Positions 3,100 to 64,000 of a DNA stretch of 64,000 nucleotides are shown here, piece after piece. Source of the DNA: Phoronis australis (Eukaryota; Animalia; Phoronida); assembly GCA_002633005.1 (NCBI GenBank), contig NMRA01000368.1, forward strand, positions 304,920 to 368,919. Direction: 5' to 3'. Each line of letters opens with the position of its first letter. The first letter of the stretch is position 1. The notes under the pieces were generated by a model that did no database searches, was not told the DNA's origin, and worked only from the letters and a program-made list of their open reading frames with translations. The translations under genes and the position numbers were made by a program.

Positions 3100-4614
3100 C
3101 TATTTTTCAAAGATAGAGCGGGTGAATAACTTCTCCGTCCTCAGGGCCTTGATGACGTCATCCCAAGTAGCTCTGGCTGGCACTTGAGACATCAGTTGAC
3201 GAGCATCGTAGAATCTCTCGCTGGAGTCTGTCTCCCAGTTGATCAGGCCCATTAGATCGCGTACCTTAACGAAGTCGCCGTAATACGTGGCACAGGGATT
3301 GTATTTCAATAACGCTGCGTCTCGAAAATCTAAGAACTGTGCCTCGTACAAACCATTAGCCTTGATCACTACTATGTTGTCCGCACTCACGGCACTCAAA
3401 ATCACGCCTGCTCTGTTGAGAACGTTAACTTGTTCACAGATTTGGATAAGAACGTCAAGCCACTCTCGTTCGGTCAGTGGAGTAAACCCAGACATTTTCT
3501 TGTAGTCGCTGAGTAGTTGACGCAGTGTCTGTCCTTTGCAGATAGGGCTTCCACCAAAGTCAATTAAAATTCCCCACGAAATGTGAATCGAATTTTCCTC
3601 TAACGGGAAAACCCCTCGAAATTGAGGCTTGATTCCTTTCTCATTGGCAAACCGGAAAATTTCAACTTCTTTCCAGACGTCGTACAAAGATGATGACTCC
3701 TTGCGAAACACCTTGAGAGCGTAGAACGTCTGCACGTGATCAACTAGGTACACACAGCCATAATTTCCTCGATCAATGACAACGGGTTTTCCGGCGTCAT
3801 GATTAACGTAATGATAGCTCATTGGATCGTGAACAATAGTCGCACCAAATTTAGACTCAAAATCTTCTAGATCGAGAAGCGGCGACGTCTTGAAAGCCGG
3901 AAATGGAAAAGCTGATGCATGTTCACTAGACCAATTTTTGCTGTTTTTATTGCTCTTCTTCTTGGAAAATACTGATTTTACTTTACGCACTGTTCTCTGG
4001 AAAAACGATAACTTTCGCTGTTCGCAGTCTTTGTCGAAACCTGCTACGTCCTCGCTCGTACCAGCTACTGGGACGTTCTCAGTTTCTGTAACTCCTTCCG
4101 GAAACACGTGCAAACTATTTTTCGGAATCTTTGCGGAGTTGGTATTGCTACTATCTTCAAATCGAGCAGCCTCACAAGAATAACCGGGCAGTGATATGTT
4201 ATCAGTTTCGGTTTCTCCTTCGGAATTGGAGCATCCCAAACCGGCATCCTCCTCAGGGATGACTTCCATAGCCCTATGTGTCTCTCGACGAGTACTGAAG
4301 CAATGTGCACGTTTTTTATACATACCGCTGCAATGTGCTGTTCTATTTTTGAGTTCAGTGGAACAACCAGGGGGTAGCAAGTCGTCACTTTTTACCACCT
4401 CCTCGTGATCGCCGCCTCCAAAGTCATCATCCTCGTGATGAATTACTTGTCGTCTGTGCGGCTTTCGACTTGTAGCACAGCAATGGGCACCATTATTTTG
4501 CATAGCTCTATAGTCTTTGATTCGTCTTTTCGCTCTGTTTCTCGAAATGTACAGTTTGAGCCTCTCGTTCGTCTTTTTCAACACGTATTTTTTGTCCGAA
4601 ATCGTTCCAACCAT
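3100..4614 (-). CDS. Intronless protein-kinase-fold protein, probable pseudokinase (about 504 aa)
   Basis: Long uninterrupted ORF. Gly-loop-like DRGNYGCVY, ALK lysine and helix-C Glu (KEVEI) are present. The catalytic loop reads VILSAVSADNIVV (no HRD Asp) and DFG reads DFR. The first in-frame ATG at 4614 has a strong context (ACAATGG); the track start at 4650 is a GTG. A TATA-like stretch lies near 4760 and AATAAA on the minus strand at 2740-2745. Confidence 0.8.
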   Translation of the reverse strand: MVGTISDKKYVLKKTNERLKLYISRNRAKRRIKDYRAMQNNGAHCCATSRKPHRRQVIHHEDDDFGGGDHEEVVKSDDLLPPGCSTELKNRTAHCSGMYKKRAHCFSTRRETHRAMEVIPEEDAGLGCSNSEGETETDNISLPGYSCEAARFEDSSNTNSAKIPKNSLHVFPEGVTETENVPVAGTSEDVAGFDKDCEQRKLSFFQRTVRKVKSVFSKKKSNKNSKNWSSEHASAFPFPAFKTSPLLDLEDFESKFGATIVHDPMSYHYVNHDAGKPVVIDRGNYGCVYLVDHVQTFYALKVFRKESSSLYDVWKEVEIFRFANEKGIKPQFRGVFPLEENSIHISWGILIDFGGSPICKGQTLRQLLSDYKKMSGFTPLTEREWLDVLIQICEQVNVLNRAGVILSAVSADNIVVIKANGLYEAQFLDFRDAALLKYNPCATYYGDFVKVRDLMGLINWETDSSERFYDARQLMSQVPARATWDDVIKALRTEKLFTRSIFEK

Positions 4615-7589
4615 TGTATTGAATTCTTGTATCACCGCTTGGGAAAACACCGATCTTCAGCTATGGACAACCACGCGCATTACAAATTACGAATGAGTGT
4701 TTATTACGCCATTCTTTATTTTGCAACAAAAATCGATTATAGTTAATTTTCCTCAGTATATATAAATTAAAAAATAGTTTTTATACTTCGGGAAACTGTA
4801 GTATTTTTCATATTCTATTACGGTATATTTAGGAAATAAGAACACCATAAAATAACCATTTTAGAACTTCTACAATTACAGTCACCTAACAATGAAATAT
4901 TCTGTGGTACAATAGACTGTCGTATATAGCAACACCTAATAAAAATAAAATGCGGTCTGCGCAATGATTTCTAGTCTCTTGATACTAAAGTACCAAAAGT
5001 CAAGTTTCATATTACATTTATGTTTTGACAATAAATACTACTAAAGTTCCGGATTTCGTTACCAGTTGCTTCTTTATATCGTTAAAACGTTTTTGGAAAA
5101 CAATGACCGAATTTGTGTTTAGGGTAAGACCAACAAAACAATTATAAATTTCAAACAAAGACAAAGCTCAGAAACCACCAGACTTGGTATATGTTTTGAC
5201 TAATGGGTGTTTTCCACAAAAAGTACTGTCAATCTATACGAAATAACTACTAAAGAACGCTGCTAACCAAAAACCACGTCTCCTCTCAGTTGTAACTTAA
5301 ATTTGGATAACTGTCCATGCACGCACCCAGCCTAAAATATAGGGGGGCTCGAATTCTTACATATGCGGACCTTTTACTGAAAAAGATCAACGAGGACTAA
5401 AAAAACGGGGCCACTATGTTCAGGCCTGCCAATCGTGCATCCATGCCGAATTCCTGTGGACTTTGTGGACTTTTGTCTCGTTTACTGGGACTTTTTGTTT
5501 CACTTAGGCGGACCTTTGTGCCCAATTCGCCAAATAGTGGGGTTGCTCGTTCGCTCCCCCCAGCCACCCACGCCCCCCCCCTCCTCCTCCTCCTGGGGTG
5601 GATCATCAGACCAGTGCGAGGGTCCCGGGGGTTTTATATAGATGAGGGACTTGCCACTCAGAAGATTGATATTTCACGACCAGATTGCCTGCGTAAGGTT
5701 GTCTTTTCTGTTTCTTCGAAAGGGTGTCTTTTCTGAAAAAATACCCTAAAGGGTTTACTTTGGGATTTTATTCTCTTACTACCCGAAGCTACAGAATGTA
5801 TTTTAACTACACATTTAACATTTTTGTTGCAAAAGAGGTACTCATTTTTTGACACCATGACTTCTTTTCTTGTACCGTTTCGGGATAATGAATAAACATC
5901 TAGTTACCAATTCTCGCTACCAACAGATTTCATTTATTAATTAATCGTTACTTAAATTTGATATTTCTTGAGCATGATTCTTTCAAAAACGTGAAAATGT
6001 GATCTTTTCATGGATACTAGCTACTGATGGGTCCCACTTTTCTTACCCCCTCTCTAAATGAGCGACTATCTCATAATCTTTCAGCTGCAACCTTCGTCAA
6101 AAATTTAGTCTAGTACTTTCACGGGAGCTGTTGTGCATCTGTGCTTTGAGGACTTGAGGAGTCTGGAACAGAGAAAATACAGGTTCCACCGAGACTGAAT
6201 ACCCACTGTACCACCCAGAAAAAGTTTTCTCCGTTGCCATGACAATGCCAATACCTCAATGTATTCTGTGTAACTAACGGATCAGAGATGCCGAAGCCAT
6301 AAACAATGGAGGGTAACTTCAGTCGGAAGAAAGATTACCACACCACTGAGCTGATGGTTGCCATGTCGTATCCAAATTCTATTGACTACCCCAAGCAAAT
6401 GAGATACTCAGCAGATTCCTGCAATACAAATACGCTGTCGTAATTTTCAATATGCGTCTCTTCATCTCGTTGAATATTTTCGTAGTCTCCAGTTATTATA
6501 CACCCTTTTCACGCAGTCGCTTTTTTAAAAGTAAGCCTCTTTTTATGTTTTAAAAACAGTTCAGTTGCGCTTAAATATAGCGCAAAGCGTGATTTTTTCG
6601 CGTGTCTCGTTATTTTCACGTCTCAAATCCATTGTTTTTTAAACCTAAAAAGAGGCTCACTACTAAAATACGTGAATAAGGTCTATAGCTCTATTTGTGT
6701 TTTCATTTCTCAGTTCCAGCGCTACTTACCTCTAAGCTTGTATTCGAAGACAGAGCAGCCGATTTTAAAAGAAAAATGTTCATACAAGCCAATTTCGTTC
6801 TTTGTATAAAAGAATAAAAGTTTGAGGAGTGTTTCACTTTCCTACGTTTGCACATTTTCTTAGAGCAAAGGTTGACAAATATTTTTTTTTTTGTGTTTGG
6901 TGCATAAATGTGTTCACAATAGCTTACATGTATTACTCGTTTCAAACAACCAGCAAATCAAGACTAGATTCTCTTCCTCCCTTCTCATAGAACTTCGTCC
7001 TTATTTGTTCAAGCCACGAAACGATTTACCAAGTAGCCTGAAGGGGGCGGATGGTTACGATGACTTCAGGCACCAAGTCATCACTTACTTATCCATGCCG
7101 TCCCTCCCTTCGTTTCAGTCAGTTTTCCCCTACTAGAATTCTTTGTATACATCGTGTAGAAGTTTTAATTTATTTTTATTCAATTTCTAAATTTGATATG
7201 TATGAATATCCATTTAATTCAATATAATTTTATTGCTGTACGAGGATCATGCTGTATATTAACCTTTGGCTAAAACATGTTTTAAATTGTATCGGATTTT
7301 ATCCTCTATAAATAAAGTTAAGTATTATTATTACCATTTCATTTTTATTTTTTATTTACTTATTTTTTATTTGTACGTAACCGAAACATGGAATGCAGCC
7401 CACCCACTCGGCATACACCTATGATACACAAGTGAGATGAACTTTTAGCCAATAGGAATGCAATGTTTTCATATTTGCAAAATGGCGGAAACTGTTCATG
7501 TTCTCTCTTGTCAGATTATGTTTTTCTGTAGTGGAACCGTGATCAAGATGTCGTGTACGTGAATTTGCCATCAAGTTGAACTTGACACT

Positions 7590-38614: not shown

Positions 38615-39282
38615 AGATATTGAATAATTTGCTGCGTTGCCTAGACTAACTTATTCTACAGTTCTTTTTATTACAGAGTATGAACTTAAGTTTTTAACCC
38701 TTTTTACAGTAGTTGAGGGTTAGAAACGCAGAATTCAACAAATTTCGTAACGAGTGCCTGTTTTATAATGAACCGTACCATTTCTCAATGATTAAGCACA
38801 ACTTCGTCTAAGTAATTCTGAAAGTGACTCAAGTTATTCCCAGTCATATCAAAGCAATTGCTTACTTAATAAAATAAATTTCTTTTCTACTGTTGACAGT
38901 TGAAAATAGTAATTTTTAAAATGGCCACTCGTAACGCTAAACTTAGTGAGATATTGAATAATTTGCTGCGTTGCCTAGACTAACTTATTCTACAGTTCTT
39001 TTTATTACAGAGTGTGAACTTAAGTTTTTAACCCTTTTTACAGTAGTTGAGGGTTAGAAACGCAGAATTCAACAAATTTCGTAACGAGTGCTTGTTTTAT
39101 AATGAACCCTACCATTTCTCAATGATTAAGCACAACTTCGTCCAAGTACTAATTCTGAAAGTGACTCAAGTTATTCCCAGTCATATCAAATTAATTGCTT
39201 ATTTAATAAAATAAATTTCTTTTCTACTGTTGACGAGTTGAAAATGGTAATTTTTAAAATGGCCACTCGTAACGCTAAACTT
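38615..39282. repeat. Near-perfect ~334-bp tandem duplication
   Basis: 38615-38945 matches 38949-39282 with a few SNPs and indels. Confidence 0.9.
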
Positions 39283-40267
39283 GAGGCATGAAATTCATAT
39301 AGACAACATGCATAAATTTCTCAAACATTGTCTGTTTTTGATGATTCATCTTTTTTTAATTTGCACAACTAAAAACTCTTTGCATATGAGATTCACTGGC
39401 ATTTGTTAAGTGACCAAAAATTTATTTTAGACCGTCAACTCTTGATCATTGTGATTTAGCCGACAGCCAAAAGCAACCCCCCTCCCCCGGCCCGGCTGCC
39501 GCCGAGGTGCGCGTACGACCATCCGTCCGCGGCGTACGCGGGCAGTGTGGCTCAGTTTGGATGATCACTTATAAGCTCAGCTGATTTTCCGTTGGAGTCA
39601 TTTGTATAAGATTCTGAATGCAGTCCGTACTATTCAAGACAAAACAGGCGAAATTGTGACATGTGCCCGTTGCCGGGCCTGTGTTATGGGTAAGTTAGGC
39701 CGCACCATGATCCCCGGCGGGCGGGGGGGCGGCCGGGTGGGAAGATTCAAGTTAGGGCGGCGCGCTTTCAGGCTACTCTTCTCCGTAGCAAACTTCTCGA
39801 ACAAGTTTAAAACAGTAGCCGACGATTAAAAATCCGCAATTTCTACAGTCACAAATGCACTATAGAACGTATCATTGACCACCGACAGAAAGGTTGTGGT
39901 GTGAGATTGTCACAACCTGACAGCGCTAACCAGAACTGAGCCGCGGATTCAGTCATGACGACGGTGGTTGATCCACTCTGTATTACAGCAACATCAGTTC
40001 ATGTGCAAAGTACATTTGCTTTTTAAGCTTAGCCTAAACCATGGAATCATCGGTTGATGCACGTATGTTTTCTTCTTCGCAAACCCCATTTCTTTTCGTG
40101 GCCTTTGATCAATCTTTCGCGCACCTGCTCATAGCGCCACCTGTTGATGACAGTTATTGTCAGGTGTGGTAAATATGATTTTCTGTTTCGCTGTGTAGGC
40201 ATTGTGTTCTGGATAATATTTGCTCATTAGAGGCCGATACTTATAAACAAGACGCTGTAGTTCAGCC

Positions 40268-43200
40268 ATGGGTAAGTTTATATCATATGTACATAGTTTA
40301 TTTGTACAGAGCTTATATCCTTGCTAAGTTAATGCCTGTGCCAGGTGTGTCAAATGTTGGCTAAGACGTAATAGACTTTGTCGTTATCAAAAGTGATTCA
40401 TCTGTCCGACTTATTTTTGATAGAATTAAAACATGTACGTGTTAGGTGTGATTTGAGACTGTCCGCCCTATGGCAAATGTTAGTATTTGTGTATCCGTTT
40501 TGATTAGTAATTCGAATTTAATGGATAGCATAGACACTTATAACCAAATTTCCTTTCTGGCTGGCCCAATTTCAAATGTAGGTCATCCAGTGTAATGCTT
40601 GTAAAGTGCGACCTAAACTTGACCCGGCGTCCTGGGGACATATAAGTTGACCTTCAAATTCAGATTTGTTTCATGTTTCTATGTATAGAACTTATTTTTA
40701 CAATGTTACTAAGATTCAGGTGGTTACAAAATTTGATTGGAACTGTGCCTGTGAGCATTTGTTCATATGTTTATTCACTTCCAGATTCAGGAATAAGAAC
40801 CATCAAATTTTACTATGACCCACTACTGATGAGCTGACGTAACTTAATAAATTAGGATAATTTGTTCATTTGTTCAGTTTGTTGTTTAATTAATTAATGT
40901 AAACATACACATTAAGGATTCAACATGGCAACACGAGACATCTGTCTTTCGTAAATTTTCTAATCTTATCATAAGATTTTTATGCCAATTTATGAAGTAC
41001 AATAAATTAATGCAATGTACCCCTTTAGGTTAACGTCCATGGCATTATGCCAATATCAAAATTTACACTTTCAAACACCCATGCTGGCTTAGTGCTCACC
41101 CCCAATGTAATTGATAGCCTTACAAGTGCAATTAAGTGGCTCTAACACGTACAATTTAACTCCCACTAAAACATATTCACATTACGTAATAGCTCAATAT
41201 TATTTTTTGGTGTAAATGATCAGTCTGGGGGAGGCATTTGGCTGAGCATGTTCAGGTAAACACTTCTATTCCCGATTTTTCAAAAATTATGCTTTTATAA
41301 ACATTAATGCTCAGCGTAATGCAATGATATTTTACTTCCCATCTAGTATATTAGCATGTCGCCCTTTTTATTTGAACTTGGTTCCAAGTGTGATTGAACC
41401 GTCAGTTCTTCCAATTTGCCCGAAAGTCATTAAATTTTCTAAGTAAGGAACAATTTTAGACCAATTAAAATTATTACAGAAAATGGTCTTAATCAAAATT
41501 TTTTTAATGGAAAGGCAGGTTTATTAACACTTTGATAATAATTAAGTATACATTAATTTGTGTTGTATAGACCTCTACAGATCTCATATCTTTCTCTCCA
41601 ATTACATATTAAGTGTTATCGCTTTGATGGGTGGATATTATTTGTAACTGATGTTAGTAATATTGCAAAAAATAACAACGCAGTTGATCTGTGCTTGACG
41701 TTTCTGAGATGAAAATTCAAACGCATAGGTGGATCAAGGGGTCCGGACCCCTCTTTTTCCCTTGGTTTAGTGATATCAAATCTAGAATCTTCAAATTGTT
41801 GACTTGGATGCCGTCTTTTGAAAAATCCTTGATCCAACCCCCCCCCCTCCTTTAATAAATCCGTTTAACGAGGAGAGCAGCAATCACGCTGAACCCTGGA
41901 TTGGTTTGGGCTCAATGTGTGCACACGAGAATACGCACATGAGCAGGAGATACCTGTTGATTTAGAAGTAGATTGCAAAACCATGAGCCTCAAAGTTTTA
42001 ATTTTGTTACAGGGTGCGTAGAGTGTCTGGGACGAGTACCATTTGCATCGCTGATCGCGATGGTGTTGACTTGTGTTGGTGTTGGAGTATTCTGTGGTTC
42101 TTTGTACGAGGCCCTGAGGATTGTTCTCATCAACATATTCGAAGAGTTGTTTTGGTTTAGGATAGACTGGTATGTGATAAACTGAGATCCTGGTCTTGGA
42201 TACATTGTCCATTTGGACCCGTCAGTTTGCATGCCTGCAGTTTTCAGATTTTGGACACCATGAATTCAAACCGTATGGTAGTTCTTTACTTTTTAACATA
42301 AAATACACCCAACAATTGAACTTTTATTTTTTTAAATTTCTCCACAAGTGATTAGGAACATTTTTGTCTATTACAATCATGATATATATGTAGTGTGTAG
42401 ATATCATTTTTGTCTATTACAATCATGATATATATGTAGTGTGTAAATATCATAAAATGACCTTTGCTAAAATTACCATTGTTTGCAAAAATGTATATCA
42501 GTCTTTGAAAAATGGAAAAATTACCACTATGGCAATTATGTGCAAATTAATGGAGAATTACGGTAGGTAAATATGTGACAACACGTTATTAATAATTTTT
42601 GAGATTCATTTACTTTTAATTATAGCGTGTTTGTAATACAAGTTCAATTAATTTTTTTTTCTGTTCTTATAAGTGCCCCAGTTAGACATCCGTTGATAAA
42701 ATAAGAAGTAACAATTATTAACTGATTCATAGTTGCATTTAGCAGCAGAGCCTAGTAAAATATTAGCATAATCAAGTCCATAGGTGGACACAGGTTGAAA
42801 AAATCGTCGACGTCATAAACAGTGGTAAAAGACAAGAAAATTTTCTTGAACAATTAAGTTTTGACTTACATAAATTGCCATGCCTTGTGAAATGCGAAGA
42901 TTTTGCAATCTCTGTGTGAGGAAGACTTGGTTTATATTTTTTATTTCTTGATTGGAAATTAAGTAGGATTTTAAAATCTTAGTTGCTACCATATCCAGGC
43001 ATTAGTATCTGTAATTTGAATCGTCGGGAGAAAATGTTCACAATCATGGTAAAAAACCACACCAATTTCAGACAGATAGTAAATAATTGCCCGAATTGTC
43101 CTATTGATCCAACGTTTTGCTTTATTCGCTAAACCATATTCTCAAGGCAAAATTTTCTCTTGTCAGGTTAACAGCTATCCAGATCACATTCATCGTGGTT

Positions 43201-46200
43201 GCAGTAGTCATGGGTTTGTTCTCAATCATTCTTCTTGTGTTTGGTTTTCTGGCAACGGGCGCCACTCGTGACAATGTCTACGCACGAACCAAGTGCATGA
43301 TGGGAGGGAAGTGTTCTGCCATTGTGGTGAGAAGTGACTTAGTCTACGCTATTATTCTCTTATTGCATCGATAATGAACAGATGTGTAACTTGCTATAAA
43401 GTCAACTGCACACAGCCTTCGACAGTATGAAAATCACATTTGCGACCAGGCCAAAATCTCAGGTGGCAATTTCAAAATTTAGCTGGCACACACCGATACC
43501 AGGCTGGTCAACCTCGACAACCAAAAGAAACACTGTTGGGTCAAGCTATATTTGGTGTTTGGGCACCCATATTTTCCCATTTCACCAGAAAAATGCTGTT
43601 TGGGTGATTTTGGGTTATGCGATTCAGCTCGCAAGTGTTAAAGGTTGTTATGCCCAAGTCGCACACCTGCAACTAATGCGAGTTGTCCAAAATCTCAGCT
43701 CCCATTTCTAAATTTCAGGTCGCAAATGTGGCCTGTAGTCCATAATGTTGAGCCCTGACACAGTTATTGTCTCTGTTATACAGTTATAGCACTGGTGAAT
43801 TTCATTAGTTTTAAGGTTAAAAGACTCTATCGACAGTTCTTTGTATTTGGCCAAATATCTACAAAAGTATAGATGTTAACTCAGTAAAGTATACGTTCTC
43901 TGAAAGTAGAAAACCTGTAGAGTTTGAATTTGGATTTTCCATCGATCTGCCATCAATTGAGTTACACGATGATGTGTTTTGATAAAATGAAGTGTAACGA
44001 ATGACATGAGCTTCCCCTCTTTACTTTGCAGTTCATGGGAATCTCTTATATTATGAATATTGGCTGGATGGGTGTATCTTGTGCTATGACCATTCCGGTG
44101 TTCCTGTACGTGTTTATGAAGGCCATCTGTGACATGGACCTCCGACAGAGGGTAGCCAACTACCAGGAAGACTATTGCTTCAATTTGACCAGAATTGGTG
44201 AGTTTTCAAGTGTTTGCTTATAGTGTACATAGTGATAGTCTGTTGGCCAATAGATGGTGTTGCTTAATATCTGGTTGTTTGTTTTCTCTGGTGGAAAATG
44301 ACTAAGTGCTGACGTGGCAATGAATAGATATATCAGAAACATTTAGTATTTTAAAAAGCACTGCAATTGATACTCTGTGTCTGCATCAGAAATTTTATTT
44401 GGATGAATTTCGGTGACTAATTTGTATTAATTCAATGATTATAAGTCACGATGTCAAAAGTCAAAATACAGTATGTTATGTTATGTAACACGATTTTTGG
44501 TTTTGTACATGTTATATAGTACCATGGGATGTTTTCAAGATCAACACTCATGTCTGTTATGTTGTTTCCTCTTTAAGGTATATTTCGGGACTACACAGAG
44601 AGCAAGGGCAGTCAAAATGCCCTGTGTACGTCAGGGGAGATAAGACAGTTATGTGACAATGTGAGTTTTTTAAGTCAGAGCAAGGAGCAAGAATATATAA
44701 TGTAAAATTAAGGGATGCCGTGACTTATCTATATTTTATTGCATTTTGTGGAATAATTATCAAAAAGTTTATGGTTCAGCAATTACATATTTTGAGTTAA
44801 TATTTATGCATTGTTACCCAAAATTGCGATTTAAAGTGTAGTTCTATTGGTTGCATTTCAGTTGCATGGTGGCCATTATTTTCTTGGGCAGTCAAGCCTC
44901 TTAGAAAACCCCGGTTCACCGAGAGTTTCCAAGTACTCATTCAGATGAGTCACTCAAAAACACTCACAATTATAGTAGGTTGTTTACTATAAAACGTGGT
45001 GGAGATTATCTGATGGGTCCTCTATGATGTTCTCGACATCATGGTTTCTTGTATCAATTCTCTTCCTGTTCTTCACACTCGTGAATGTGTTCACTCTCCT
45101 GGTTTTCTGCTGCAGGTTGACTTGACAGGGCCATACTTTGGTGCTGCGTTTGGTGGTGCCCTGTTAATAGTGCTAGGCCTGGTAAGTGACTCATCAGGTA
45201 TCTGTTGCTGTTTTGGCTTAGTTTTAGAAATAGTCTTATCTTGTGTGATACTTACGGTTTTGCTTTTGTTTATCACTGATGCTGAATTGTGTATTGCACT
45301 TCTTAAAAGGATACTAAATCCTGTTTTGGTGATTGCAACCAAGTCTCGCTTTGTCCCCTGCTGATGCACAACTTATGTGAAAAAAGCAGGATTATGCTAC
45401 GAAAACACAATACTCACTGTCTCACAGAATACACATTATGGTTCTCCATGGGTTGTCCTTCCCAATAGTTGTCATGTAACTCACCAAAGACTCGGTAAAG
45501 AGTTTTCAAAATTTGCTTCAAAGTGGGTTAGCGACGGTTAGAGGGGATTATTTTGATGTAGAGTACAGGAAAGGAAAATGGTTAATATATGTTAATAGGC
45601 CAAATACGGGACTGCCATAGTATCCTTTTAAAATTTTGATTGTCAAAATGCTGCTGTTATTTCTAAGCATGTAGAACATTTCTTAGTGTGCCATGAGTTG
45701 TTTATGTGTCTCAATTTATAGAAAGCCTTTTGTGAAAGTCTAGGATTCTTAAACTATATTTGCTTATTAACTTAAAATATAATTTGCTTATTATCCTACT
45801 TGGTGCATTACCTCCCCTTACCCTGATTAAATGCATGCGCAACATTCCTGGCATTATGTAAATGGTAAGCTTCATATAGTCCAGTTCACCTGTAAATCAG
45901 TTCAGTCTTGAACTTGTCAGCGTGTTTATAATGCAGTGAAATGGCTTGCAAAAGCAAGATAAAGGAAATTGAAGTAGTGCGCTCTTTCGGTAGATTTTGC
46001 ATGGGCCATAATTAATTAGTGTCAGGGGAGCATAGATTATGGTTAGGATAACCATCATTTCTGATTGTTTTGTTAAAAATAGTTCCAAGAAATTGTCTTT
46101 CTCCGTTGGTTCAATGTTTTACTGCGTTAGCTTTTTGAAGCTTTGTTTTTCACTCCGACCATTTCTCTACATCTTTTCCTACCTGATGCAATGTTGACTT

Positions 46201-48173
46201 GTGGAATGCTTTTGAGACTGCGCAGCGCAAAGCAATCTACTGGCATCCCTTTCTTAAATTTTGTAGTCCCATTTCATTGTCATCCTGGCCACTAACTATA
46301 CCAGAATCAAGACCACCAAAGAGCTAACAGAGTATAAACAAGCAGTCGATGAAGAACTTGAGATGGAGGCTTTTCGCATTGACAGAAATTTTTCTGATGC
46401 CTAGTAACCTGTGTCTGCTTTTGGTAGGCGGATTGTTTTGTAACTGAAAGAGATTTCACTAGGTCTTGATGGTGGGCAGTGCTTAAATTTGCGATTTCTT
46501 AAATTAAGTTTTGCAATAGAAAGAAGCCACAAATAATGCAAAATATATTAGATTATATGAAAATTGAGTGAAAGGGGTTGAATATAGAGAAGAAACTGGG
46601 ATGATCTTTTTTAGAAATTCTCATGTTTGCTATTCAGTAGTTTTTGCTTTGGTGTGTTTCCTTTCTTTGTGAAACGATTGTGGCATACACTTCCATGCAT
46701 GTCTTTGCTGCATGTGCTCCGTTAGGTTCTGTACTTGGTCTTCTGCATGCTTGGCACTGCATGTGGACTGCTGGCAGCTGTTGAAATATATGTTCTATGT
46801 GCTTGACCTGTAAGGTGCTTTTGATAAAGTGGACTGCTTTTCCAATCCAACTGCTGCTGACACTTTCCAGGTCTATACTCTCATTTTAGAGATGTTCTGT
46901 TCGCTATTGATGATTTGTCAATCCGTCTGTTCTAGTCCATGTTTGTTGTTATTCTGGTGGCTAATTACACACGCATAAAGATCTCCAAAGAGCTCACGGA
47001 GTATCGTGATGCCGTAAACCCCAGCCTGACGGAGCTGGATGAAGTGTTTACCCAACGTTCCTGAACTTGCCTTAATGGTATGATACTAATGGACGGAACT
47101 GGATGTTGTGCAGAGTTTGTACGGTGAATAGATTCTATCCGGTACATTAACCAAGGCCATTCTGTCATGCTACATATATTTGATATCTGTTGTTGTGACT
47201 GACCATGCTTATATCGAGCCCTGTCTCATGGAGAGTTTGCTGATTTATGAAAGTTGATACCCGTTCACTGAGATGCCATTTCGTTCATAATCTGACCAAG
47301 CCATTGTGCAGTTTTCTGTCTACATGCATTCAAACATGGGGCTGCTCCATATTGGAAATGTTCTGAGTTATGTTCGGAAATCTTGAGCTTTTTTGCTTTA
47401 CAAGACAAATAACGTCATTACTTGTACTTTTGATGCAAAACTGTTAGTGACGTACTCAGCAAGTGGTTATAATGTATAACCGTAGTAATCGTTTCTGTGG
47501 TTCAAAAAAGCAAGAATTAAGATGCAAAAGACACGACGCACAATTTGAATCATGTTTGGGTTTTTGCACAGTGTCACCAAGTCAGGCTACAATTGCTTCA
47601 CTCAAATGCATGTTATTTGTGGTTTCTTTGCAAAAATAATGTCTAAAAGTCATTCTAAATGCATTCAATGTTGCATCAAAGCTTTTAGTTGAAGATTTTC
47701 ACTTTTCCCGTGTCTGGTGAATTCTTTGTTATCGTAGGAAGTGTTATTGAATCATTATGATACGCTATTATGTAGACAAAAGGCTTGTTCTTCACAGATT
47801 TAATGCAGTGTTTTAGTTTGTAATGAGTGGTAGTACACCCCGTGTTGACCATTGTTAAATTTAACAGTTGCTTTTTCATGTGCAGTTTGTATTTCTAGTC
47901 AAAGAGTACCTCTAACTAATGAGAATTGATATCTTTATGGTATCTCTCCCGGGACTCATTGCACAACCATTGTGCTTGAATGTTTACATTCATTTGAAAC
48001 TGATGTTTATTTACTTTTGTCTCATTTTGTTTTAGACGCTGTTTGTCGTGATCTTAACAGCAAATTACACACGGATAAAAATATCAAAAGAGCTGACAGA
48101 ATATCGAGATGCCGTCAACTATGAAAGCACACAACTTGACCAGATTATCACCAACTCAAAGGCAGAGTTTTGA
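40268..48173 (+). CDS. M6: Neuronal membrane glycoprotein M6 / myelin proteolipid (PLP/DM20) family tetraspan protein; shared exons 1-6 plus one of three alternative last exons
   Basis: Shared exons: 40268-40271 (ATG G), 42013-42169, 43167-43326, 44032-44197, 44578-44660, 45116-45181. Hallmarks: MGCVECLGRVPFASLIA, GVGVFCG, GFLATGATR, GGKC, four Cys in the second extracellular loop (ICD...YCFNL..LC..LCD), and a final ANY motif. An exon 1 coding only Met plus one base matches vertebrate PLP1. Confidence 0.93.
46267..46404 (+). CDS. M6: M6 alternative last exon 7a (SHFIVILATNYTRIKTTKELTEYKQAVDEELEMEAFRIDRNFSDA*)
   Basis: Acceptor TTTTGTAG, phase 0 matching exon 6, intact ORF, homologous to 7b and 7c. 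Confidence 0.85.
   Translation, partial: SHFIVILATNYTRIKTTKELTEYKQAVDEELEMEAFRIDRNFSDA
46936..47064 (+). CDS. M6: M6 alternative last exon 7b (SMFVVILVANYTRIKISKELTEYRDAVNPSLTELDEVFTQRS*)
   Basis: Acceptor CTGTTCTAG, phase 0, intact ORF. Confidence 0.85.
   Translation, partial: SMFVVILVANYTRIKISKELTEYRDAVNPSLTELDEVFTQRS
48036..48173 (+). CDS. M6: M6 alternative last exon 7c (TLFVVILTANYTRIKISKELTEYRDAVNYESTQLDQIITNSKAEF*)
   Basis: Acceptor TTTTGTTTTAG, phase 0, intact ORF. AATAAA lies downstream at 49786. Confidence 0.85.
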   Translation, partial: TLFVVILTANYTRIKISKELTEYRDAVNYESTQLDQIITNSKAEF

Positions 48174-51100
48174 AATCATTTGAATTCCACCAACGTCATG
48201 TTGTAAAACAATGAATCATCAGTGTGTGTACTAGCAATGTAATAAGTCTACTTTTAACAGATATTTTGTATCGAGACATTCCATTTTGTACGTTTTATTT
48301 TTGAAATTATCGAGTATTAAAAAACGTCCTGTTAAGCCTCGTGTTATTTGTGGAGGCAATGTTTGTGTCATCTTTATATTCTTTCTTGCTTCTTTCTTGC
48401 TGGAAAACTTTGATGAAGTGCTCGTCAGGAGGGTTTGCCCTTTATATGCTGAAGTTCAATGTTACTAATCAAATTCTTCGTTTTACATGAAGCCCATCCA
48501 TTTAGGTGTTAAAACTGTGATTTAGTTCCTAGTGAATGTTAGGGTTAATGTTTGACAAGAAACTGTGGGTGTTTTGTTGCAGTGCATATCCTTTCGGGAT
48601 GGTTTTTCTGACTTCTGGCAAGGCAGTGCGCCTTTGCATTTCATCAGAAACTCTACAGAAGGAATTAACAAAGAATGACATAATGCCTCACTAAGCTGAT
48701 AGCTGCATTCTGTTTTAGGGATTTTAACAGTGAGATTGACATTTTGCTTTGTTGGAAAAACAACATTTTAAACATTTTGACTAGGCATTCAGGACAGGTG
48801 TATATTAATAATTTTTAATAGTCTTTGTATATAATGGGTAAATCTAATTTATGTTTTCATTTATCGACACAGTTTATGATTATATTTGCTTTTGTAGGTT
48901 TTGATCTTATACAGTCGATTGTTTCAATTTCTATTACTATACTGTCAGAATGACAAGATTATGGTTATACAGGTTCTGGAAAGTGTGTTTTGCACGTGGC
49001 AGTATTTTATAATGATTTGCACAAAAAGTTTTAAGCGGATTATTACAAGGTATTAAATGTCAGTTAACTAGACCTGTATTGTTGTGATAAAGAAAAGAGG
49101 TTTTAGGCACATAATTACATGGTATTTAATGAAAATTCACTGGAAGTATTAAAATGTATTAGTACCTTGATTATATGTTTTAATGGATTCATTACCCATG
49201 GTCACCCGTTGAGGATGTGAAATGTATAATATGACTTGACCTACTGTTGTTCCACTTATCTCAGAAAACACTTCTAGTCCTATCACATCTTGTTTTCTTG
49301 TGAAATGCATCTTTGTGTGAAACGCTTAGTCATCTTATTGCCAGTGTGACACAGTTGGTAACCAATTTTATTTTCCATTCAAATGAATTCTGAAAATTGT
49401 ATTTTATGTGCTGGATCCAGGATTTTGAGTAAGTTCACTGTATATTCATTTATTGGCACTTTCTTGTATAGCCTGCTCCTAGGAACAATCTCCAGCAAGC
49501 TGAGTGCGGGTTTACTGTTTTCTTGTGTTCCTACGTAAGCTAAATCTTGGTTGTAATTGAAGCTTACCCCCGTTACCACAATTTTCAATGCAGCTTGCTA
49601 GGAGTCCGACTCTGCAATGTAGGTCTGCTGCCTCAATGTATAGTTTAGCACTGGCTCCTAAGCATCTCTTGCTTGGAGTAATGTGTGGGGATACCCACTG
49701 TTATGACGTGAGAACTATCCTTGAAGACTTATTCAAATATTGTGTGATTATTTCTGTGTTGCTTTTAAAAGCTAATGTATGTTAGAATAAATAGTTATTG
49801 ATTTGCATACATTTTTATGCGCCCATAGGCATATGTGGCTGCATATTGCCGTAATCTCTGCATGTCTGTCTGGTGCGCCCCCTGCTGTATCTCCTAAAGG
49901 GCTTGCCGGATCTTTATGAAATTTTACAGGTGTGTTTCTGTGAAGCTGACGACTGCTGATGGTGGTTTTAGGACAAATCCAACCACTGGTGTCTGCCTCT
50001 CTTTCTAACCACAGTTCCTTGACGAATTTAGCAATGCTCCTACTCAAATGTTAGGAGGATTTAGGGGGTGGATGCAGGCCCCCTCCATCCTTGGGCGGCT
50101 GCAATAAAATAAAACGCCGAAAGTGTGAAGAAATATTGAGTTTATTAATTAACCCCATCGGAAACTAGATTTGGCATTTGTGGAGTTGTATATTGTGTGT
50201 GCGTGTAGGGGACTCGGAACCGATATCAACTCTCCAATTCAGACAACCGGCGCTATGGCTAAGTAATGCCGCTCTCGGTCTATATGTGTGTGATATCCCA
50301 GGCGACCGGCAGTGGTAGTCTCTGAACAGGAAAACGCCGTCATGGAAATGCGATTGTGCGCACAGTCAGTTGCTTGAAGTCACTTGAGGTCAAAGGTCAC
50401 ATTTTCCATGTAAGGGAAATCTGCTCAGTACGTCTATGTTTTGCCATACCAAATAAGGAGACGTGCTTTCGTGCTTTGCCTTGTGGGAGAAATATTGGCG
50501 AAGTGTAGAGCAGTTGACAGATCGTTTTTTTCGAAATTTGAAACTACAAGAAAATGTTTTGATATCAACAGCAATTAGAAATCTTTACCAACAAACCCTA
50601 GAAATACTTGAATTCTGTTTCACTTCCCATTTCGCGATTTAGTCTGTTTATCGCGTTCCAGGCCTCCTTTTAAGTCGGACATTTTTAAAATGTACAACTT
50701 AAAATTGTACTTTTCGGTGTCTTTACGTTAAAATGAAACAAACTTACAACAGCGGTCACCCAGAAAAAAACATAGGTGACAGTTTGAAGGGACTTGGAAA
50801 ATCCCCAAACTAAATAGTTTAATTTCACTATAGCTCCGGAAAACGAAACACAAGTCTCAGCGTTGTTCTGAATAGCCATAACATGAAGATTTTGTTACTG
50901 ACTCACCAGTGAGTGCTCCATATTATTTTAGCCTAATTCTAAAATCAAGTCAAAAACTGCTGAAAATTTTTCAAACACGGCAAATACTGAAACATTCACG
51001 AACGATTTGGGGCACTGGGTTCTTTTATCAGAAGACGAAACGTCCTACTGGATCCACAAAGGTCCTTGAAATTGCTAGGGTTTCTGGCGTCCGTCTCTCT

Positions 51101-52782: not shown

Positions 52783-55700
52783 ATGATGAAACATATGGTA
52801 AGATCCAAGTGAAATAGAGTTCACTTTTTTCATTCTAGGTAGGGTAAACAATGCAAATTTTTCATTGCACTCTATAGGAACCCGACAATACAATAGATTT
52901 CTCTGAAAATAGCTAATCAATTTATGCCATTAATGTGTACATATTGTGGGGTTGTTTGGACACGGAAACTTTCCGATTACCACATGAGGTTAGCATTGTC
53001 CCTTTGATTTCAGCTTTGCTGGTTAGCCGATGCCGGGGTGATCAATGATATTACCCAACTTGGGATTGTCCTAGGAGAGATTGAATGCCAATTCGTCCTT
53101 TTTATGTCGACCTTCGACGAAAATTTGGCTTTCTAGTTGCTATAATTAATGTATCGTTTGTTTTTTGGTCACTTGATGAGATCTCAAAATATTAACGTCA
53201 TAACCATTGTAGCCACTTTCCTAGTTCATGCAGAGAAACGGAGAAGTACTGCATTAGATGTTGTAGTTTTGTTTCGCCTTAGCAGTTTGTTCAAACCAAC
53301 AGGTGTCTTTGTGTATAGTGTGTTTATTTCTGGCGGTACACTGAATAAATCACCATTATAAGGCTTTAAATGCAACAATTTAAAATTTGTTTTTTCTTTG
53401 TATCGAAAACTAGCCAACAGCATAAATTTTGACTATGGCGTGGACTTCAAAACTACCGGATATCTACCGACAACGCAATTTTAAATGTGCCCTAGAATTG
53501 AGTGCACGTGGTTGTCAGAAAAAAACCTAGTTTGTGATAATCCTGAATATACTGGGAATGGCATAACTGCAAACTTATGATGCCAGTCTAGTCGACATCT
53601 TTCAAAACATGTTCAAGGTTTAACATGATTTGCTCTCCCGTTCACTTACACAGGAAACGCACGTGAATTGGTTTCTTTGTTTCCACTTTGCAATTTTTGT
53701 GGTTCTTTTAATTTGCAAAACGTTCAACCTGTTACGGTTTGAAATTTCTCTCCTTTTCATTATTAAACTATTCACTTAATTAAACCTATTTATAAGTTCA
53801 ATAACCACGATTTTCGATTGATATGTCGGCTCATTAGAGGGTAACGTATTTGTGCCATGTACGTAGCTCTGTTCAAATACAGTCGTATAACAACCCCCCG
53901 CCATCAATTTCAGCTCCTTATACCCAATTTCTCCACTCCCCTCCATCGCTACCACCCATTCCCTTGGGGATGTCGTCACCACGTAGATTGATTTCAATTT
54001 GAACATATTTGATACCTTTCATTCTTGTCCTGCTTTTTTCTGTCTCACTCACATGCGCAGATAGTTGAAAGATTGATTTCTAACACAGAATAAGTCAACT
54101 TGCTGGTTGTCTCTTGCTTTTTGGTCAGTAAGCCCATTATGGGTGACAACTTTTCAAGCCTTCTTGGAACCAAACCTGAATTTACAAATCCTTGCGAATA
54201 AGTAGAATAGCCTAAAATATTCTGTAAACACATTATACGTATGTCACACTCTATTTCCGGTTTTGGCACCGGGATTTTCCGAAGATAAGCCCATCCGATG
54301 AAAAACCAATTGGCTTTTATTCGAAAAATTATGCCGAATGAACGCCCATGGGTGTTTATTTGGTGTTACAACTTCTAGTGTCACGTTTCCAGAAGTAGTT
54401 GGGCGTTTGTTCAGAAAATTTCTTCTTAAAAGCCCACACAGCGTCAACTTTGTGTCTCAAATTCAATTTTGTGGAACATTTATCATTTACAAACACGAAC
54501 AAGGTATTGGCGACCTATGCATTTATTTACATAAAAGTTGAAGTAAACAATGTCGAAGTCAGCAAAACTATGACTTTCCGTTTACAAGCTCCTCTTTTCC
54601 GGTAACTATGGTTCAGAACTATACGCAATATAATGGTCGATCTTTGACTCTACTTCCAGAGGCTGTTGGTAGCTGTAAGTCTGCTGTTAGTCGTTTACGT
54701 GCGCGCAGACGACATAGAAAAGCAAGAAGCAGGCGAAAACAGCGAAGCCCAGGAGCTTAAGAGAGGGGCAGACGTACTAACTTTCGCTGATGAAGAAACA
54801 CCGGAAGTTGTTAGGGAAGTGGAAAGGGCTAACGATGGAGGCCAAGACAAAAGCATAGAACAAGGAGTTGAAGCGACTAGGCGACAAAGTTCCCGATATA
54901 AATATGATTATTGCAATAACTGCAAAAAAGTTGAACACGTTCATCCTAAGGGTCCTTACTATGGTGGAAGTGGCTACAGCAGGTGTTACCTTCCTTGGTC
55001 AAACACACTCAGGTCGTCCATGTGCTGGGAGACCGGGTAAGTAAATAAAAATATTGCCCACAGAGCAAAGTCATTTAATGATTCGTTACAAAACAATCCC
55101 AAGTCTTCATAGAAAGTCACCGAAGTAGTGTTTCTAAGTTAAGTGTCATCTTTTTACAATATTCTAGCATTAATTTGTCAAATCTATCCAGAAACTAATA
55201 CGTTTAAAAGTAACAATGAGCAGGTGTGAGATCAGTGCTTTTGTTCTAAATTAGGTTTCGGGGTCTAGTCTTTGTACTCGAACTCGAAAATATTTCTGGT
55301 ATTTTGTATTTTGCTTTTTGCGAACTCAGCATAAGTGCCTATTAGCATATGGGTTTCTAATACAAGTTTGATGACTCTTATATTCGCGTTACAAACTCGA
55401 GATTTCAGGTAAATACTGATAATTTCGAGTTCAAAATCGAACTTTTGGTCTTCATGCTGGGGTCATCAATATCAAACTAGGATTGAAAAGATACAAAGCA
55501 TACAATAATTCACACTTATCTTGAGTTCGCACAAAAGAAGAGTACAAAATTCCAAAAATAATGTCGAGTTTGAGTTCAAGTAAAAAGATTAGACCACGCG
55601 TCCAAATCTGTGATTTTGTATTCTAGACATCTTTGCCTCGCCTACTGTACCAAAAGATACTACGGAAGATGCTACACGACGTTTAAGTGGGTTAACGTTG

Positions 55701-61979: not shown

Positions 61980-62899
61980 ATGTGGGTTGCATATCTAGTG
62001 ACGATGACATTGGCGATTGGTCAGTGTGTCTTCGGTAAGTAGTAAAATAGATCTAGAACCTTTGGTTTAATGGTTGTAACAAGAAAAGAAAGATCCGGTT
62101 CCCGCTAGCTTCTCGCGAGTGGGAGTAAATGAGATCACATGCTAGTTTCGCTTGCAATGCATGCCAATATCTCGTCGAATGCGGCAGGATCTCGCCAAGC
62201 TCGCAAAAAGCTAAAACTAATGTCAGTTAAATCCTGACAGAATATGTACCGAGATGTAGGTCTGATTGTGCTGGTGGTGCATATTCAATGTTGACTGTAG
62301 GGATTTTTATCACCTGGCAAGTACATAAGTAAGTAAGTAAGTAAGTGGGTAGGTAAGTAGGTAAGTAAGTAAGTAAGTAAGTAAAACCTTTATTTTAAAT
62401 CGTTGTGGGTAGATACAATAAAGAAACATTATTTAGCACAAGTGCTAGTTACCGATAGAAAATACATGTGTGGACAATAAATTATTTACAGAGAGGTATG
62501 GAAGAATATATACAGAAAGAACATACAAAACTATGACTTCTAAGTTGCTGATAAAAAAACTCTTTCAAATCGTATCTTTTTATTTTAGGACAAGAATACC
62601 AAGTATTAAACACTGCCAACCGATATCATTACGTACCGGTCACGTATAACTTCAACAACAGTCACTATGCGGAATTTGATGTTAAGGCTTGTAATGACGC
62701 CCACATCAATTTAATGGCTGATGTCGACAGAGACCTACAAAGAACATACGAGATTGTGATTGGAGGATGGCAAAATTCGAAGTCTGTTATTCGAAAGGAA
62801 AAACAAGAGCGCCCTCCACGAGCTCAAAAGATTGGACGCTACTTGGACTGCCATCGTTTCAAACGATTTTGGATTTCGTGGAGTCGTCACACCATAAAG
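61980..62899 (+). CDS. Secreted protein with a farnesoic acid O-methyltransferase-like (Methyltransf_FA) domain; 5' part only
   Basis: Exon 61980-62034 encodes the signal peptide MWVAYLVTMTLAIGQCVF(G). Exon 62589-62899 contains FDVKACNDAHINL, YEIVIGGWQNSKSVIR and LDCHRFKRFWISW, all hallmark motifs of this domain. It ends at the donor AAG|GTAATG. Confidence 0.88.
62327..62384. repeat. (AAGT)n tetranucleotide microsatellite, imperfect
   Basis: Seen directly. Confidence 0.9.
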
Positions 62900-64000
62900 G
62901 TAATGCATATTTTCCTTTAAGCAAAAAGATAAAATACAAGTCATTATTCAGCCAGTAGCAGATTTAACAGATTAAACAGCGATAAAATACCGCTTTTAAT
63001 CAAAGGCAATTGCATTTAGTTACTACGTAAGAGGAACAATTCAATCCTGCACTCGTCAATTTCTGTTGGCGTTTTCGGGGTGTAAATTAAGCTGTCGTCA
63101 ACATCCTCTCCCTGACGGTGCTTTTCTACTTTCCCACGTCGTCTTCAAATGTGCGCTCGCTGTCTCATTTACCCATTCAAAACTGAATCTTCAAATTTCT
63201 CTCGAGTTGGCCTCGGCCTCTGTGGCTGTGTCACCATCGATACTCGTAAAAGAATCGAGACTCCGTCTTATCTCGCGGCCTCTCCCGGACAACATGAAGA
63301 GGATTCATAACTTCCGGTATTTGGTTTCATGTACATGTAGCAACGAAGATAAATTAACTTTCGTTTTTATTTCGCGCATTTCAAGTAAATTTTTGAGTTT
63401 GAAATTAACTTGCTGTGTTTTATGCAAATTAGATCGCGTATGCCACCAACACAAGTCGGATTTTTGCTACGAAACACGCCGGAACAAACTTGAAAATTGT
63501 TGTTGATCGGCCCGAATATGGCCACAGCCTTTCAACACAAAAATCGAGACTTTTGGCCCAAAGAAACGGTTGAATCAATTGGATTAATCTTTTCATCTGG
63601 TTGAATTCGCAGTCGTTTCCGGGGAAATTTAGTTTGAATTTTGTGATTTTGCAGGAATTTTTGCTCGACGTAAACGTAGTAGTTTCTCAACTGTAACTAC
63701 AGGTTTACAATACATAGTAAACCAATATGGCCAAGATTCAGCAAGAGCGAAATTTTGCCATTTTTCTTGATTGTCACAAGCTCATATGTGTTAGCGTGCA
63801 AAGTGGCGGTAAATGAAAAATATGCCAACGAAATATTTAAACTTTCTTCTTTCTATTGATGTTCATTACAATAAATCGGGGCATAAATGAATATTTTTAA
63901 AAATCGAAGTAGTGCGAGCACTTCAAACATTTTTCACTCAGTGGCAAATTCGTGACAGTTTTGGGATAAACTTTCAGCAGCTAAATGCTTGTAACTGAAC

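What the first reader, a model, noticed from the sequence alone, without database searches (positions are those of the whole stretch)
45116..48173. M6/PLP proteolipid gene with three tandem, mutually exclusive last exons that swap the end of TM4 and the cytoplasmic tail
Seen: after the phase-0 donor at 45181 there are three homologous exons (46267-46404, 46936-47064, 48036-48173), none in the ORF track. Each has its own pyrimidine-AG acceptor, phase 0 and stop codon. They share F(I/V)VILx(T/A)NYTRIK(T/I)(T/S)KELTEY(K/R)xAV while differing at many synonymous positions (e.g. AAG ATC TCC AAA GAG CTC ACG GAG vs AAA ATA TCA AAA GAG CTG ACA GAA), and their flanks show no similarity. The tails then diverge: ...IDRNFSDA*, ...EVFTQRS*, ...ITNSKAEF*. 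Known: vertebrates diversified this family by gene duplication (PLP1, GPM6A, GPM6B) and by the PLP/DM20 loop splice, and the GPM6A C-tail has been implicated in trafficking and filopodium formation. Inference: this is an old exon triplication under purifying selection that lets one invertebrate gene make three 254-257 aa proteolipids with different intracellular tails. -S-D-A and -A-E-F resemble class I and class II PDZ-ligand ends; 7b has neither. I do not know of this arrangement being described.
Basis: partly seen in the sequence, partly recalled or inferred. Interest (0 to 1): 0.82.

Follow-up and report, generated by a model that had tools for sequence, protein, structure and literature searches.

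The report
Three swappable tails on M6 proteolipid
A marine invertebrate's M6 (myelin proteolipid family) membrane-protein gene carries three tandem copies of its last coding exon, all spliced in RNA, giving three predicted proteins with different inner tails; human GPM6B is known to swap tails at the same point, and this switch has likely re-arisen several times in animals.

Summary
This is a PLP/M6-family gene with three homologous coding exons after the donor at 45181, giving 257, 254 and 257 aa proteins. RNA reads show all three junctions (12, 21, 28 reads). Synonymous sites are near or at saturation and pN/pS is 0.08-0.30.

Two corrections. (1) 7a and 7b are not last exons in the spliced reads seen. 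Donors 19 and 13 nt after their stops splice onto 7c (7 and 31 reads), which then serves as 3' UTR. That spacing would avoid canonical nonsense-mediated decay. (2) The arrangement is already catalogued for human GPM6B at the same breakpoint, dated there to vertebrates.

What appears new: public proteins show the same swap in a brachiopod (three tails), two nemerteans, an annelid and amphioxus. Tail trees pair 7b with 7c and reject one pan-bilaterian 'extra tail' class (p-AU 0.012), so repeated duplication is favoured. Only 7c keeps the E-x-x-x-L register of the GPM6A sorting motif and a K-x-x-F/Y end. Function of the tails is inferred, not tested. New variant of a known kind; moderate interest.

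The parts
40268..40271 (+). Coding end of exon 1 (ATG + 1 nt); transcribed exon extends upstream to at least 40169
   Evidence: Junction 40271->42013 in 20/7/63 reads of X2/X3/X4 and in the X1 contig; frame
42013..42169 (+). Exon 2 (TM1)
   Evidence: Junctions; Pfam Myelin_PLP E 6e-13
43167..43326 (+). Exon 3 (TM2, intracellular loop)
   Evidence: Junctions; Myelin_PLP E 5e-9
44032..44197 (+). Exon 4 (TM3, start of large extracellular loop)
   Evidence: Junctions; Myelin_PLP E 3e-7
44578..44660 (+). Exon 5 (large extracellular loop)
   Evidence: Junctions; frame
45116..45181 (+). Exon 6, last shared coding exon (first half of TM4), phase-0 donor
46267..46423 (+). Exon 7a: coding 46267-46404 (45 aa, ends FSDA), then 19 nt of UTR and a donor (TTG|GTAGGC) spliced to 48036
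   Evidence: In: 8/1/3 reads; out to 7c: 0/5/2 reads, flagged 'between: not known'
46936..47077 (+). Exon 7b: coding 46936-47064 (42 aa, ends TQRS), then 13 nt of UTR and a donor (ATG|GTATGA) spliced to 48036
   Evidence: In: 2/4/15 reads; out to 7c: 8/2/21 reads
48036..48173 (+). Exon 7c coding part (45 aa, ends KAEF); coding when joined to exon 6, 3' UTR when 7a or 7b precedes it
   Evidence: Exon 6->7c: 3/7/18 reads and the X1 contig
48174..49791 (+). Shared 3' UTR up to the only AATAAA between the 7a stop and 49800 (49786-49791); exact cleavage site not mapped
   Evidence: Stranded depth falls at about 49726; hexamer scan

Best explanation
One M6/PLP-family gene splices its shared exon 6 to any of three homologous exons, which is predicted to give three tetraspan proteins that differ in the inner half of TM4 and the cytoplasmic tail and likely differ in trafficking or partner binding. 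Shown in reads: skipping 7a and 7b makes 7c the coding end; including 7a or 7b supplies an earlier stop, and the transcript then splices onto 7c, which becomes 3' UTR with one shared end near 49.8 kb. Inferred: stops 19 and 13 nt before the last junction avoid canonical nonsense-mediated decay, while a 7a+7b+7c transcript (stop 161 nt before the last junction) would be a target, which could explain why no 7a->7b junction is listed. Inferred: 7c is the ancestral-type tail, keeping the E-x-x-x-L register of GPM6A residues 258-262 and a K-x-x-F/Y end; 7a and 7b alter these, so exon choice would tune surface residence or sorting. Inferred history: the last exon has duplicated more than once (7b/7c in this lineage; separately in chordates), possibly on top of an older lophotrochozoan duplication that gave 7a.
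For: Junction reads exon 6->7a/7b/7c: 12/21/28; 7a->7c 7; 7b->7c 31; no 7a->7b row, with all rows of the joints table shown. Over 27 homologous codons pN/pS is 0.30 (CI 0.11-0.63), 0.17 (0.07-0.31) and 0.08 (0.00-0.20), with pS 0.71-1.05. Isoform shares differ among the three raw-read runs (permutation p 0.0008 on reads, 0.010 on distinct starts). Same-breakpoint tail pairs occur in Lingula (3 tails), Tubulanus, Lineus, Owenia, two unnamed JGI/IMG pairs, three Branchiostoma species and salmonid M6b, and in human GPM6B. 7b+7c clade 98/90; 7a with annelid-cluster short tails 95/87. One bilaterian 'short tail' clade rejected, p-AU 0.012 and 0.007. D/E at Tyr+7 with L/I at Tyr+11 in 3 of 9 longest tails (7c included), 0 of 11 other tails and 11 of 27 single rows. 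K-x-x-F/Y end in 5 of 9 longest tails and 0 of 11 others (read; noticed after the fact). The mouse Gpm6a tail is needed for filopodia, surface level and clathrin association (PMC6131581 abstract and section 20; PMC5611492 abstract). In an AlphaFold model of the Tubulanus X1 relative (pLDDT 84.5) the swap point, residue 219/220, lies inside the final helix 188-262.
Against: No protein-level or functional data. Counts are small and come from three raw-read runs of one study with tissue unknown, so isoform differences could be individual or allelic. Run X2 has 8 reads into 7a but 0 from 7a to 7c, and 2 into 7b but 8 out, which the model does not explain. The 7a->7c joint is flagged 'between: not known'. 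Whether this animal uses junction-dependent decay is unknown, and GT sites of similar consensus score are expected about 0.55 times per 55 nt by chance, so the short stop-to-donor spacing is not proof of selection. The E-x-x-x-L register is missing in 6 of 9 longest tails. The GPM6A YEDI endocytic motif has Ala at +3 in all three window tails, so it is not what is swapped. Trees use 45 columns; a 7a+7b+7c clade is not rejected (p-AU 0.34). Relatives' genomic DNA was not seen.
Confidence: 0.72

Rival explanations
1. Classical alternative last exons: 7a and 7b usually end at their own poly(A) sites and the splices onto 7c are a side route.
For: Stranded reads cover the introns of the cluster. 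X2 shows 8 reads into 7a and none from 7a to 7c. In X4, 5 molecules begin at 46834, between 7a and 7b. The human catalogue attributes C-terminal substitutions to alternative poly(A) use or frameshifting skips (PMC8373072 passages).
Against: Reads leaving 7a and 7b for 7c (7 and 31) balance reads entering them (12 and 21; binomial p 0.36 and 0.21). Depth downstream of 7a is no higher than in the intron upstream of it. No AATAAA or ATTAAA lies between the 7a stop and 7c.
Confidence: 0.12
2. Single ancient origin: the duplicated last exon dates from the bilaterian ancestor and has been kept, with copies homogenised or replaced within lineages.
For: The breakpoint is identical from brachiopod to human. 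The long-type tail is the distal exon here and, if GPM6B lies on the minus strand (recalled), in human. 7c shares a short I-x-T-N-S-K stretch with the amphioxus long tail.
Against: Amphioxus and fish tails group together, apart from all lophotrochozoan tails (93/99). A cross-phylum short class is rejected (p-AU 0.012 and 0.007). Mollusc clusters and a flatworm-like unnamed cluster show one tail type at this breakpoint. A shared breakpoint is expected anyway if the intron position is conserved.
Confidence: 0.2
3. The extra exons are translated but functionally near-equivalent: selection keeps TM4 and the juxtamembrane helix intact, and the tails drift.
For: Purifying selection was measured only on the first 27 codons. 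The distal parts of the extra tails share little across species.
Against: Two or three copies persist in four lophotrochozoan lineages and in chordates; a K-Q/E-type short tail recurs across annelid-cluster rows and 7a; isoform shares differ between runs.
Confidence: 0.15
4. Assembly artefact, uncollapsed haplotypes or pseudo-exons.
For: The species is highly polymorphic (many alleles and indels in the UTR).
Against: The copies are only 60-74% identical with unrelated flanks; single reads join 7a or 7b to 7c in cis; no read fits two places.
Confidence: 0.01

Closest known systems
[quoted passage not shown] 2021, PMC8373072 supplement)
   Same: Same family and same mid-TM4 breakpoint; two homologous coding exons about 1.5 kb apart (chrX 13774547-13774624, 26 aa; 13772884-13773030, 49 aa) give a short and a long tail. 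Salmonid M6b shows the same pair.
   Different: Two copies, dated to Vertebrata in that table. Here there are three copies in a lophotrochozoan, and the extra tails are not orthologous to the chordate short tails by AU test. Onward splicing of the stop-bearing copies to the distal copy is shown here; for GPM6B I could not check it. The psi/omega C-termini of M6B (Werner et al. 2001) are recalled, paper not held.
Tandem exon duplication-derived C-terminal substitutions in general (PMC8373072, PMC9741552)
   Same: Homologous 3' coding exons used alternatively; 77 of 236 human events are C-terminal; convergent cases at the same region are described for tropomyosin (passages).
   Different: Those papers attribute C-terminal swaps mainly to alternative poly(A) use; here one poly(A) region appears shared and the choice is by cassette inclusion.
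Drosophila M6 isoforms (Zappia et al. 2012, PMC3438117)
   Same: Single invertebrate PLP-family gene diversified by alternative transcripts.
   Different: Fly isoforms A-C differ only at the N-terminus and D is a frameshifted form lacking TM4; no duplicated last exon is described in the passages read.
Lingula anatina M6-a isoforms X1-X3 (RefSeq XP_013391813-15) and amphioxus X1/X2
   Same: Automatic annotations with identical protein up to the same residue and 2-3 homologous tails.
   Different: Database models only; I found no paper describing them, and their genomic layout was not seen.

Membership tests
PLP/M6 proteolipid family (PF01275) | Pfam Myelin_PLP match above the curated cut-off | tested here: met
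   Exons 2, 3, 4 score 49.5, 36.6, 31.0 bits against a cut-off of 23.8; the other 5 of 8 pieces give no Myelin_PLP hit alone
PLP/M6 proteolipid family (PF01275) | Four transmembrane segments with a large second extracellular loop bearing cysteines | tested here: met
   Four hydropathy peaks, the third weak; four long helices in the model of relative P0078; loop cysteines nearly invariant in alignment A2. The window's own spliced protein was not folded.
Tandem exon duplication-derived C-terminal substitution | Adjacent homologous exons in the same frame and phase | tested here: met
   18-24 of 27 residues identical, same phase-0 acceptor
Tandem exon duplication-derived C-terminal substitution | Each copy is used as the coding end in transcripts | tested here: met
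   12, 21, 28 junction reads in 3 of 3 raw-read runs
Alternative last exons (alternative polyadenylation) | Each exon is terminal with its own poly(A) site | tested here: not met
   7a and 7b splice on to 7c (7 and 31 reads); no AATAAA/ATTAAA between the 7a stop and 7c. A minor own end for 7a is not excluded.
Mutually exclusive exons (strict) | Never two copies in one transcript | tested here: not met
   7c is present with 7a or 7b as UTR. For 7a versus 7b alone no joining row is listed (under 3 reads), too few to prove exclusion.
Docking-site/selector RNA-structure clusters (Dscam type) | Competing intronic base-pairings stronger than chance and conserved | tested here: inconclusive
   Best intron-intron duplexes (-24.2 to -25.5 kcal/mol) were reached by 6 of 24, 5 of 9 and 5 of 22 shuffles; conservation could not be tested.
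Orthologue of the GPM6B long/short exon pair | Extra copy groups with the chordate short tail across species | tested here: not met
   p-AU 0.012 and 0.007 against such clades; 45 columns, groups partly chosen after seeing the tree
PDZ ligands (class I / II) | Conserved terminal S/T-x-hydrophobic or hydrophobic-x-hydrophobic that binds a PDZ domain | tested here: inconclusive
Binding not tested.

The most novel reading that the evidence does not exclude
The tail-swap exon of the PLP/M6 family is a pan-bilaterian switch: a two-tail gene existed in the protostome-deuterostome ancestor and has been kept through birth, death and conversion of exon copies, using a shared terminal exon as UTR. The vertebrate split into PLP1-type and GPM6A-type tails would then be a partition of a far older splice choice, and GPM6B would join the small set of splice events traced to Bilateria.
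Probability: 0.2. Interest if true: 0.72.

Novelty: new variant of a known kind. Interest (0 to 1): 0.5.

Why it matters
The human catalogue dates the GPM6B tail swap to vertebrates. Finding the same swap at the same residue in amphioxus and in four lophotrochozoan lineages means either a much older event or a site where the same exon duplicates repeatedly; both bear on how myelin proteolipid tails arose. The window also gives a clean, RNA-supported example of stop-bearing duplicate exons that reuse the distal copy as 3' UTR, so C-terminal swapping needs no extra poly(A) sites. The three natural tails, one keeping and two altering the GPM6A E-x-x-x-L register, are a ready test of which tail features control surface delivery and filopodia. 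It is not a new kind of system.

Tried and rejected
No whole genome is held for this window and no collection of eukaryotic genomes was available, so relatives' exon layouts were not examined.

Competing RNA structures: inverted repeats bracket 7a (45665-45684/46785-46804) and 7b (46520-46536/47613-47629), but duplex energies did not beat shuffles, of which there were few. Rejected as unsupported.

Assembly artefact: rejected.

Dating by tree: AU tests of within-species clades were all inconclusive (window p 0.34, Lingula 0.54, Owenia 0.41, two JGI pairs 0.38 and 0.26), as was a lophotrochozoan short class (0.35). The Lineus X2 tail was left out of the tail tree because it aligns with an insertion.

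No solved relative by sequence or by Foldseek at E <= 0.001 (best CD81, E 0.13).

My first exon boundaries were off by one and were corrected from the RNA junctions. An initial guess of mollusc was dropped: the body tree places the protein outside the mollusc (99) and annelid (98) clusters, unresolved near brachiopod and nemertean rows.

The Sinanodonta/Potamilus pair (P0001/P0011) also differs after the breakpoint, but these are two species and one tail is a repetitive run; not counted.

Literature: 10 full-text searches listed no paper on duplicated last exons of invertebrate M6; most subscription papers are not held, and two recalled papers (Werner 2001, Moebius 2008) could not be opened, so absence from print is not shown. 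Earlier findings of this scan: nothing.
Full report
Observation. The three exons are present at the stated coordinates, in phase 0, each with an AG acceptor and a stop. They are the only three motif hits in the window. Over the 27 ungapped homologous codons they share 18-24 residues but only 60-74% of bases; pS is 0.71-1.05 and pN 0.07-0.22, giving pN/pS 0.30, 0.17 and 0.08 with bootstrap intervals below 1. Flanks are unrelated in 6 of 6 comparisons. So the copies are old and the TM4-proximal block is under purifying selection.

The gene. RNA junctions define six shared coding exons (40268-40271, 42013-42169, 43167-43326, 44032-44197, 44578-44660, 45116-45181). They give 212 shared residues and proteins of 257, 254 and 257 aa. 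Three of eight exon pieces pass the Pfam Myelin_PLP cut-off. The protein is about 50% identical to mollusc, annelid and brachiopod M6 proteins. A tree of the shared part puts it among lophotrochozoans, outside the mollusc and annelid clusters; the organism was not identified. The swap point lies in the fourth hydrophobic segment and, in a model of the Tubulanus relative, inside the last helix.

RNA. One search listed four runs: X1 (contigs, RNA a guess) and X2-X4 (stranded raw reads of one study, about 18-19% of each read). Exon 6 joins 7a in 8/1/3 reads, 7b in 2/4/15 and 7c in 3/7/18. Two further joints were not anticipated: 46423->48036 (0/5/2 reads, flagged 'between: not known') and 47077->48036 (8/2/21). 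These donors lie 19 and 13 nt after the stops of 7a and 7b. Reads in and out balance overall (p 0.36 and 0.21), depth ends near 49726, and the only AATAAA in the stretch is at 49786. No 7a->7b joint reaches the listing threshold of 3 reads. Thus 7a and 7b behave as stop-bearing cassette exons and 7c is the shared terminal exon. By the canonical 50-55 nt rule (PMC13542418, passages) these transcripts would escape decay while a 7a+7b+7c transcript (161 nt) would not; this is inference, since decay rules in this animal are unknown and a donor-like site so near a stop is not rare by chance. Isoform shares differ among the three runs (p 0.0008 on reads, 0.010 on starts), but tissue and individual are confounded. 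Against the model: X2 has 8 reads into 7a and none from 7a to 7c.

Relatives. Three protein searches and three cluster look-ups (30 clusters) gave 191 proteins. Nine of the 30 clusters show tail pairs that diverge at the same breakpoint, making eight gene-level cases: Lingula (three tails), Tubulanus, Lineus, Owenia, two unnamed JGI/IMG pairs, Branchiostoma (three species) and salmonid M6b. Mollusc clusters showed no clear case (10 clusters, two of them unnamed fragments; Patella; oyster, 15 of 48 members listed); two cephalopod-type clusters vary only further downstream; an unnamed flatworm-like cluster (11 of 11 listed) has one tail. That the tails come from tandem exons of one locus is inferred from identical upstream protein and isoform labels; I could not see the DNA.

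What is known. The supplement of PMC8373072 (rows read; main-text passages) lists human GPM6B as a C-terminal tandem-exon substitution at this breakpoint, last common ancestor Vertebrata. Drosophila M6 isoforms differ otherwise (PMC3438117, passages). Ten searches listed no paper on the invertebrate case; two recalled papers on M6B isoforms and proteolipid phylogeny were not held and may discuss it. That the GPM6B short tail resembles PLP1, and that GPM6B lies on the minus strand, are recalled.

History. On 45 columns of 46 tails (Lineus X2 left out), 7b and 7c are sisters (98/90), 7a groups with annelid-cluster short tails (95/87), and chordate tails stand apart from lophotrochozoan ones (93/99). 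Holding chordate and lophotrochozoan extra tails together is rejected (p-AU 0.012, 0.007); within-species clades, including 7a+7b+7c (p 0.34), are not. The best reading is repeated duplication of one exon, perhaps with an older lophotrochozoan event; a single ancient origin with later homogenisation is not excluded.

Function. The mouse Gpm6a tail is required for filopodia; K250, K255 and E258 matter, and YEDI (251-254) and EEQEL (258-262) are proposed sorting motifs (PMC6131581 abstract and section 20; PMC5611492 abstract; PMC10940456 passages). Anchored on the tail tyrosine, D/E at +7 with L/I at +11 is present in 7c, absent in 7a and 7b, and found in 3 of 9 longest tails, 0 of 11 other tails and 11 of 27 single rows. 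Five of nine longest tails end K-x-x-F/Y, none of the 11 others (post hoc). The YxxI motif is absent from all three window tails. The most likely role is therefore tuning of sorting or surface residence by tail choice; this is untested. PDZ binding is inconclusive, and intronic RNA pairing was no better than chance.

Verdict. Real, expressed and old; a new variant of a known kind (tandem-exon C-terminal substitution, known in GPM6B). The added value is its phylogenetic breadth and the cassette-plus-shared-UTR layout. Interest 0.5.

Noticed in passing
window 45384-48035: Stranded reads cover the introns of the alternative cluster (depth mostly 1-8, up to 12) while bins wholly inside introns 1 and 2 have none: slow splicing of the cluster or 3' bias of unspliced RNA.
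   Followed up: no
window 46834: Five molecules begin here in run X4, between 7a and 7b, 6 nt after a GATAAA; could mark a minor own end for 7a.
   Followed up: no
window 46267-47077, run X2: 8 reads enter 7a but none go from 7a to 7c, while 7b has 2 in and 8 out; no 7a->7b joint is listed. Unexplained.
   Followed up: partly
proteins P0053/P0098 and P0055/P0100: Cephalopod-type M6 clusters vary only the far end of the tail, a different way to change the C-terminus.
   Followed up: no
proteins P0111 and P0114: Unnamed ENA proteins with sister bodies (100) but long-type versus short-type tails; probably the same swap in another annelid group.
   Followed up: partly
window 38617-39285: An apparent near-identical tandem duplication of about 340 nt upstream of the gene, seen by eye.
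   Followed up: no
window 62555-62920 (+): Exon with a Methyltransf_FA (PF12248) match, E 6e-21.
   Followed up: partly
window 54648-55040 (+): Frame with a hydrophobic start, an acidic spacer with basic pairs and a cysteine-bearing end, like a secreted peptide precursor; no Pfam hit.
   Followed up: partly
window 3100-4656 (-): 518-codon open frame whose second half looks kinase-like by eye; no Pfam hit at E 0.01.
   Followed up: partly
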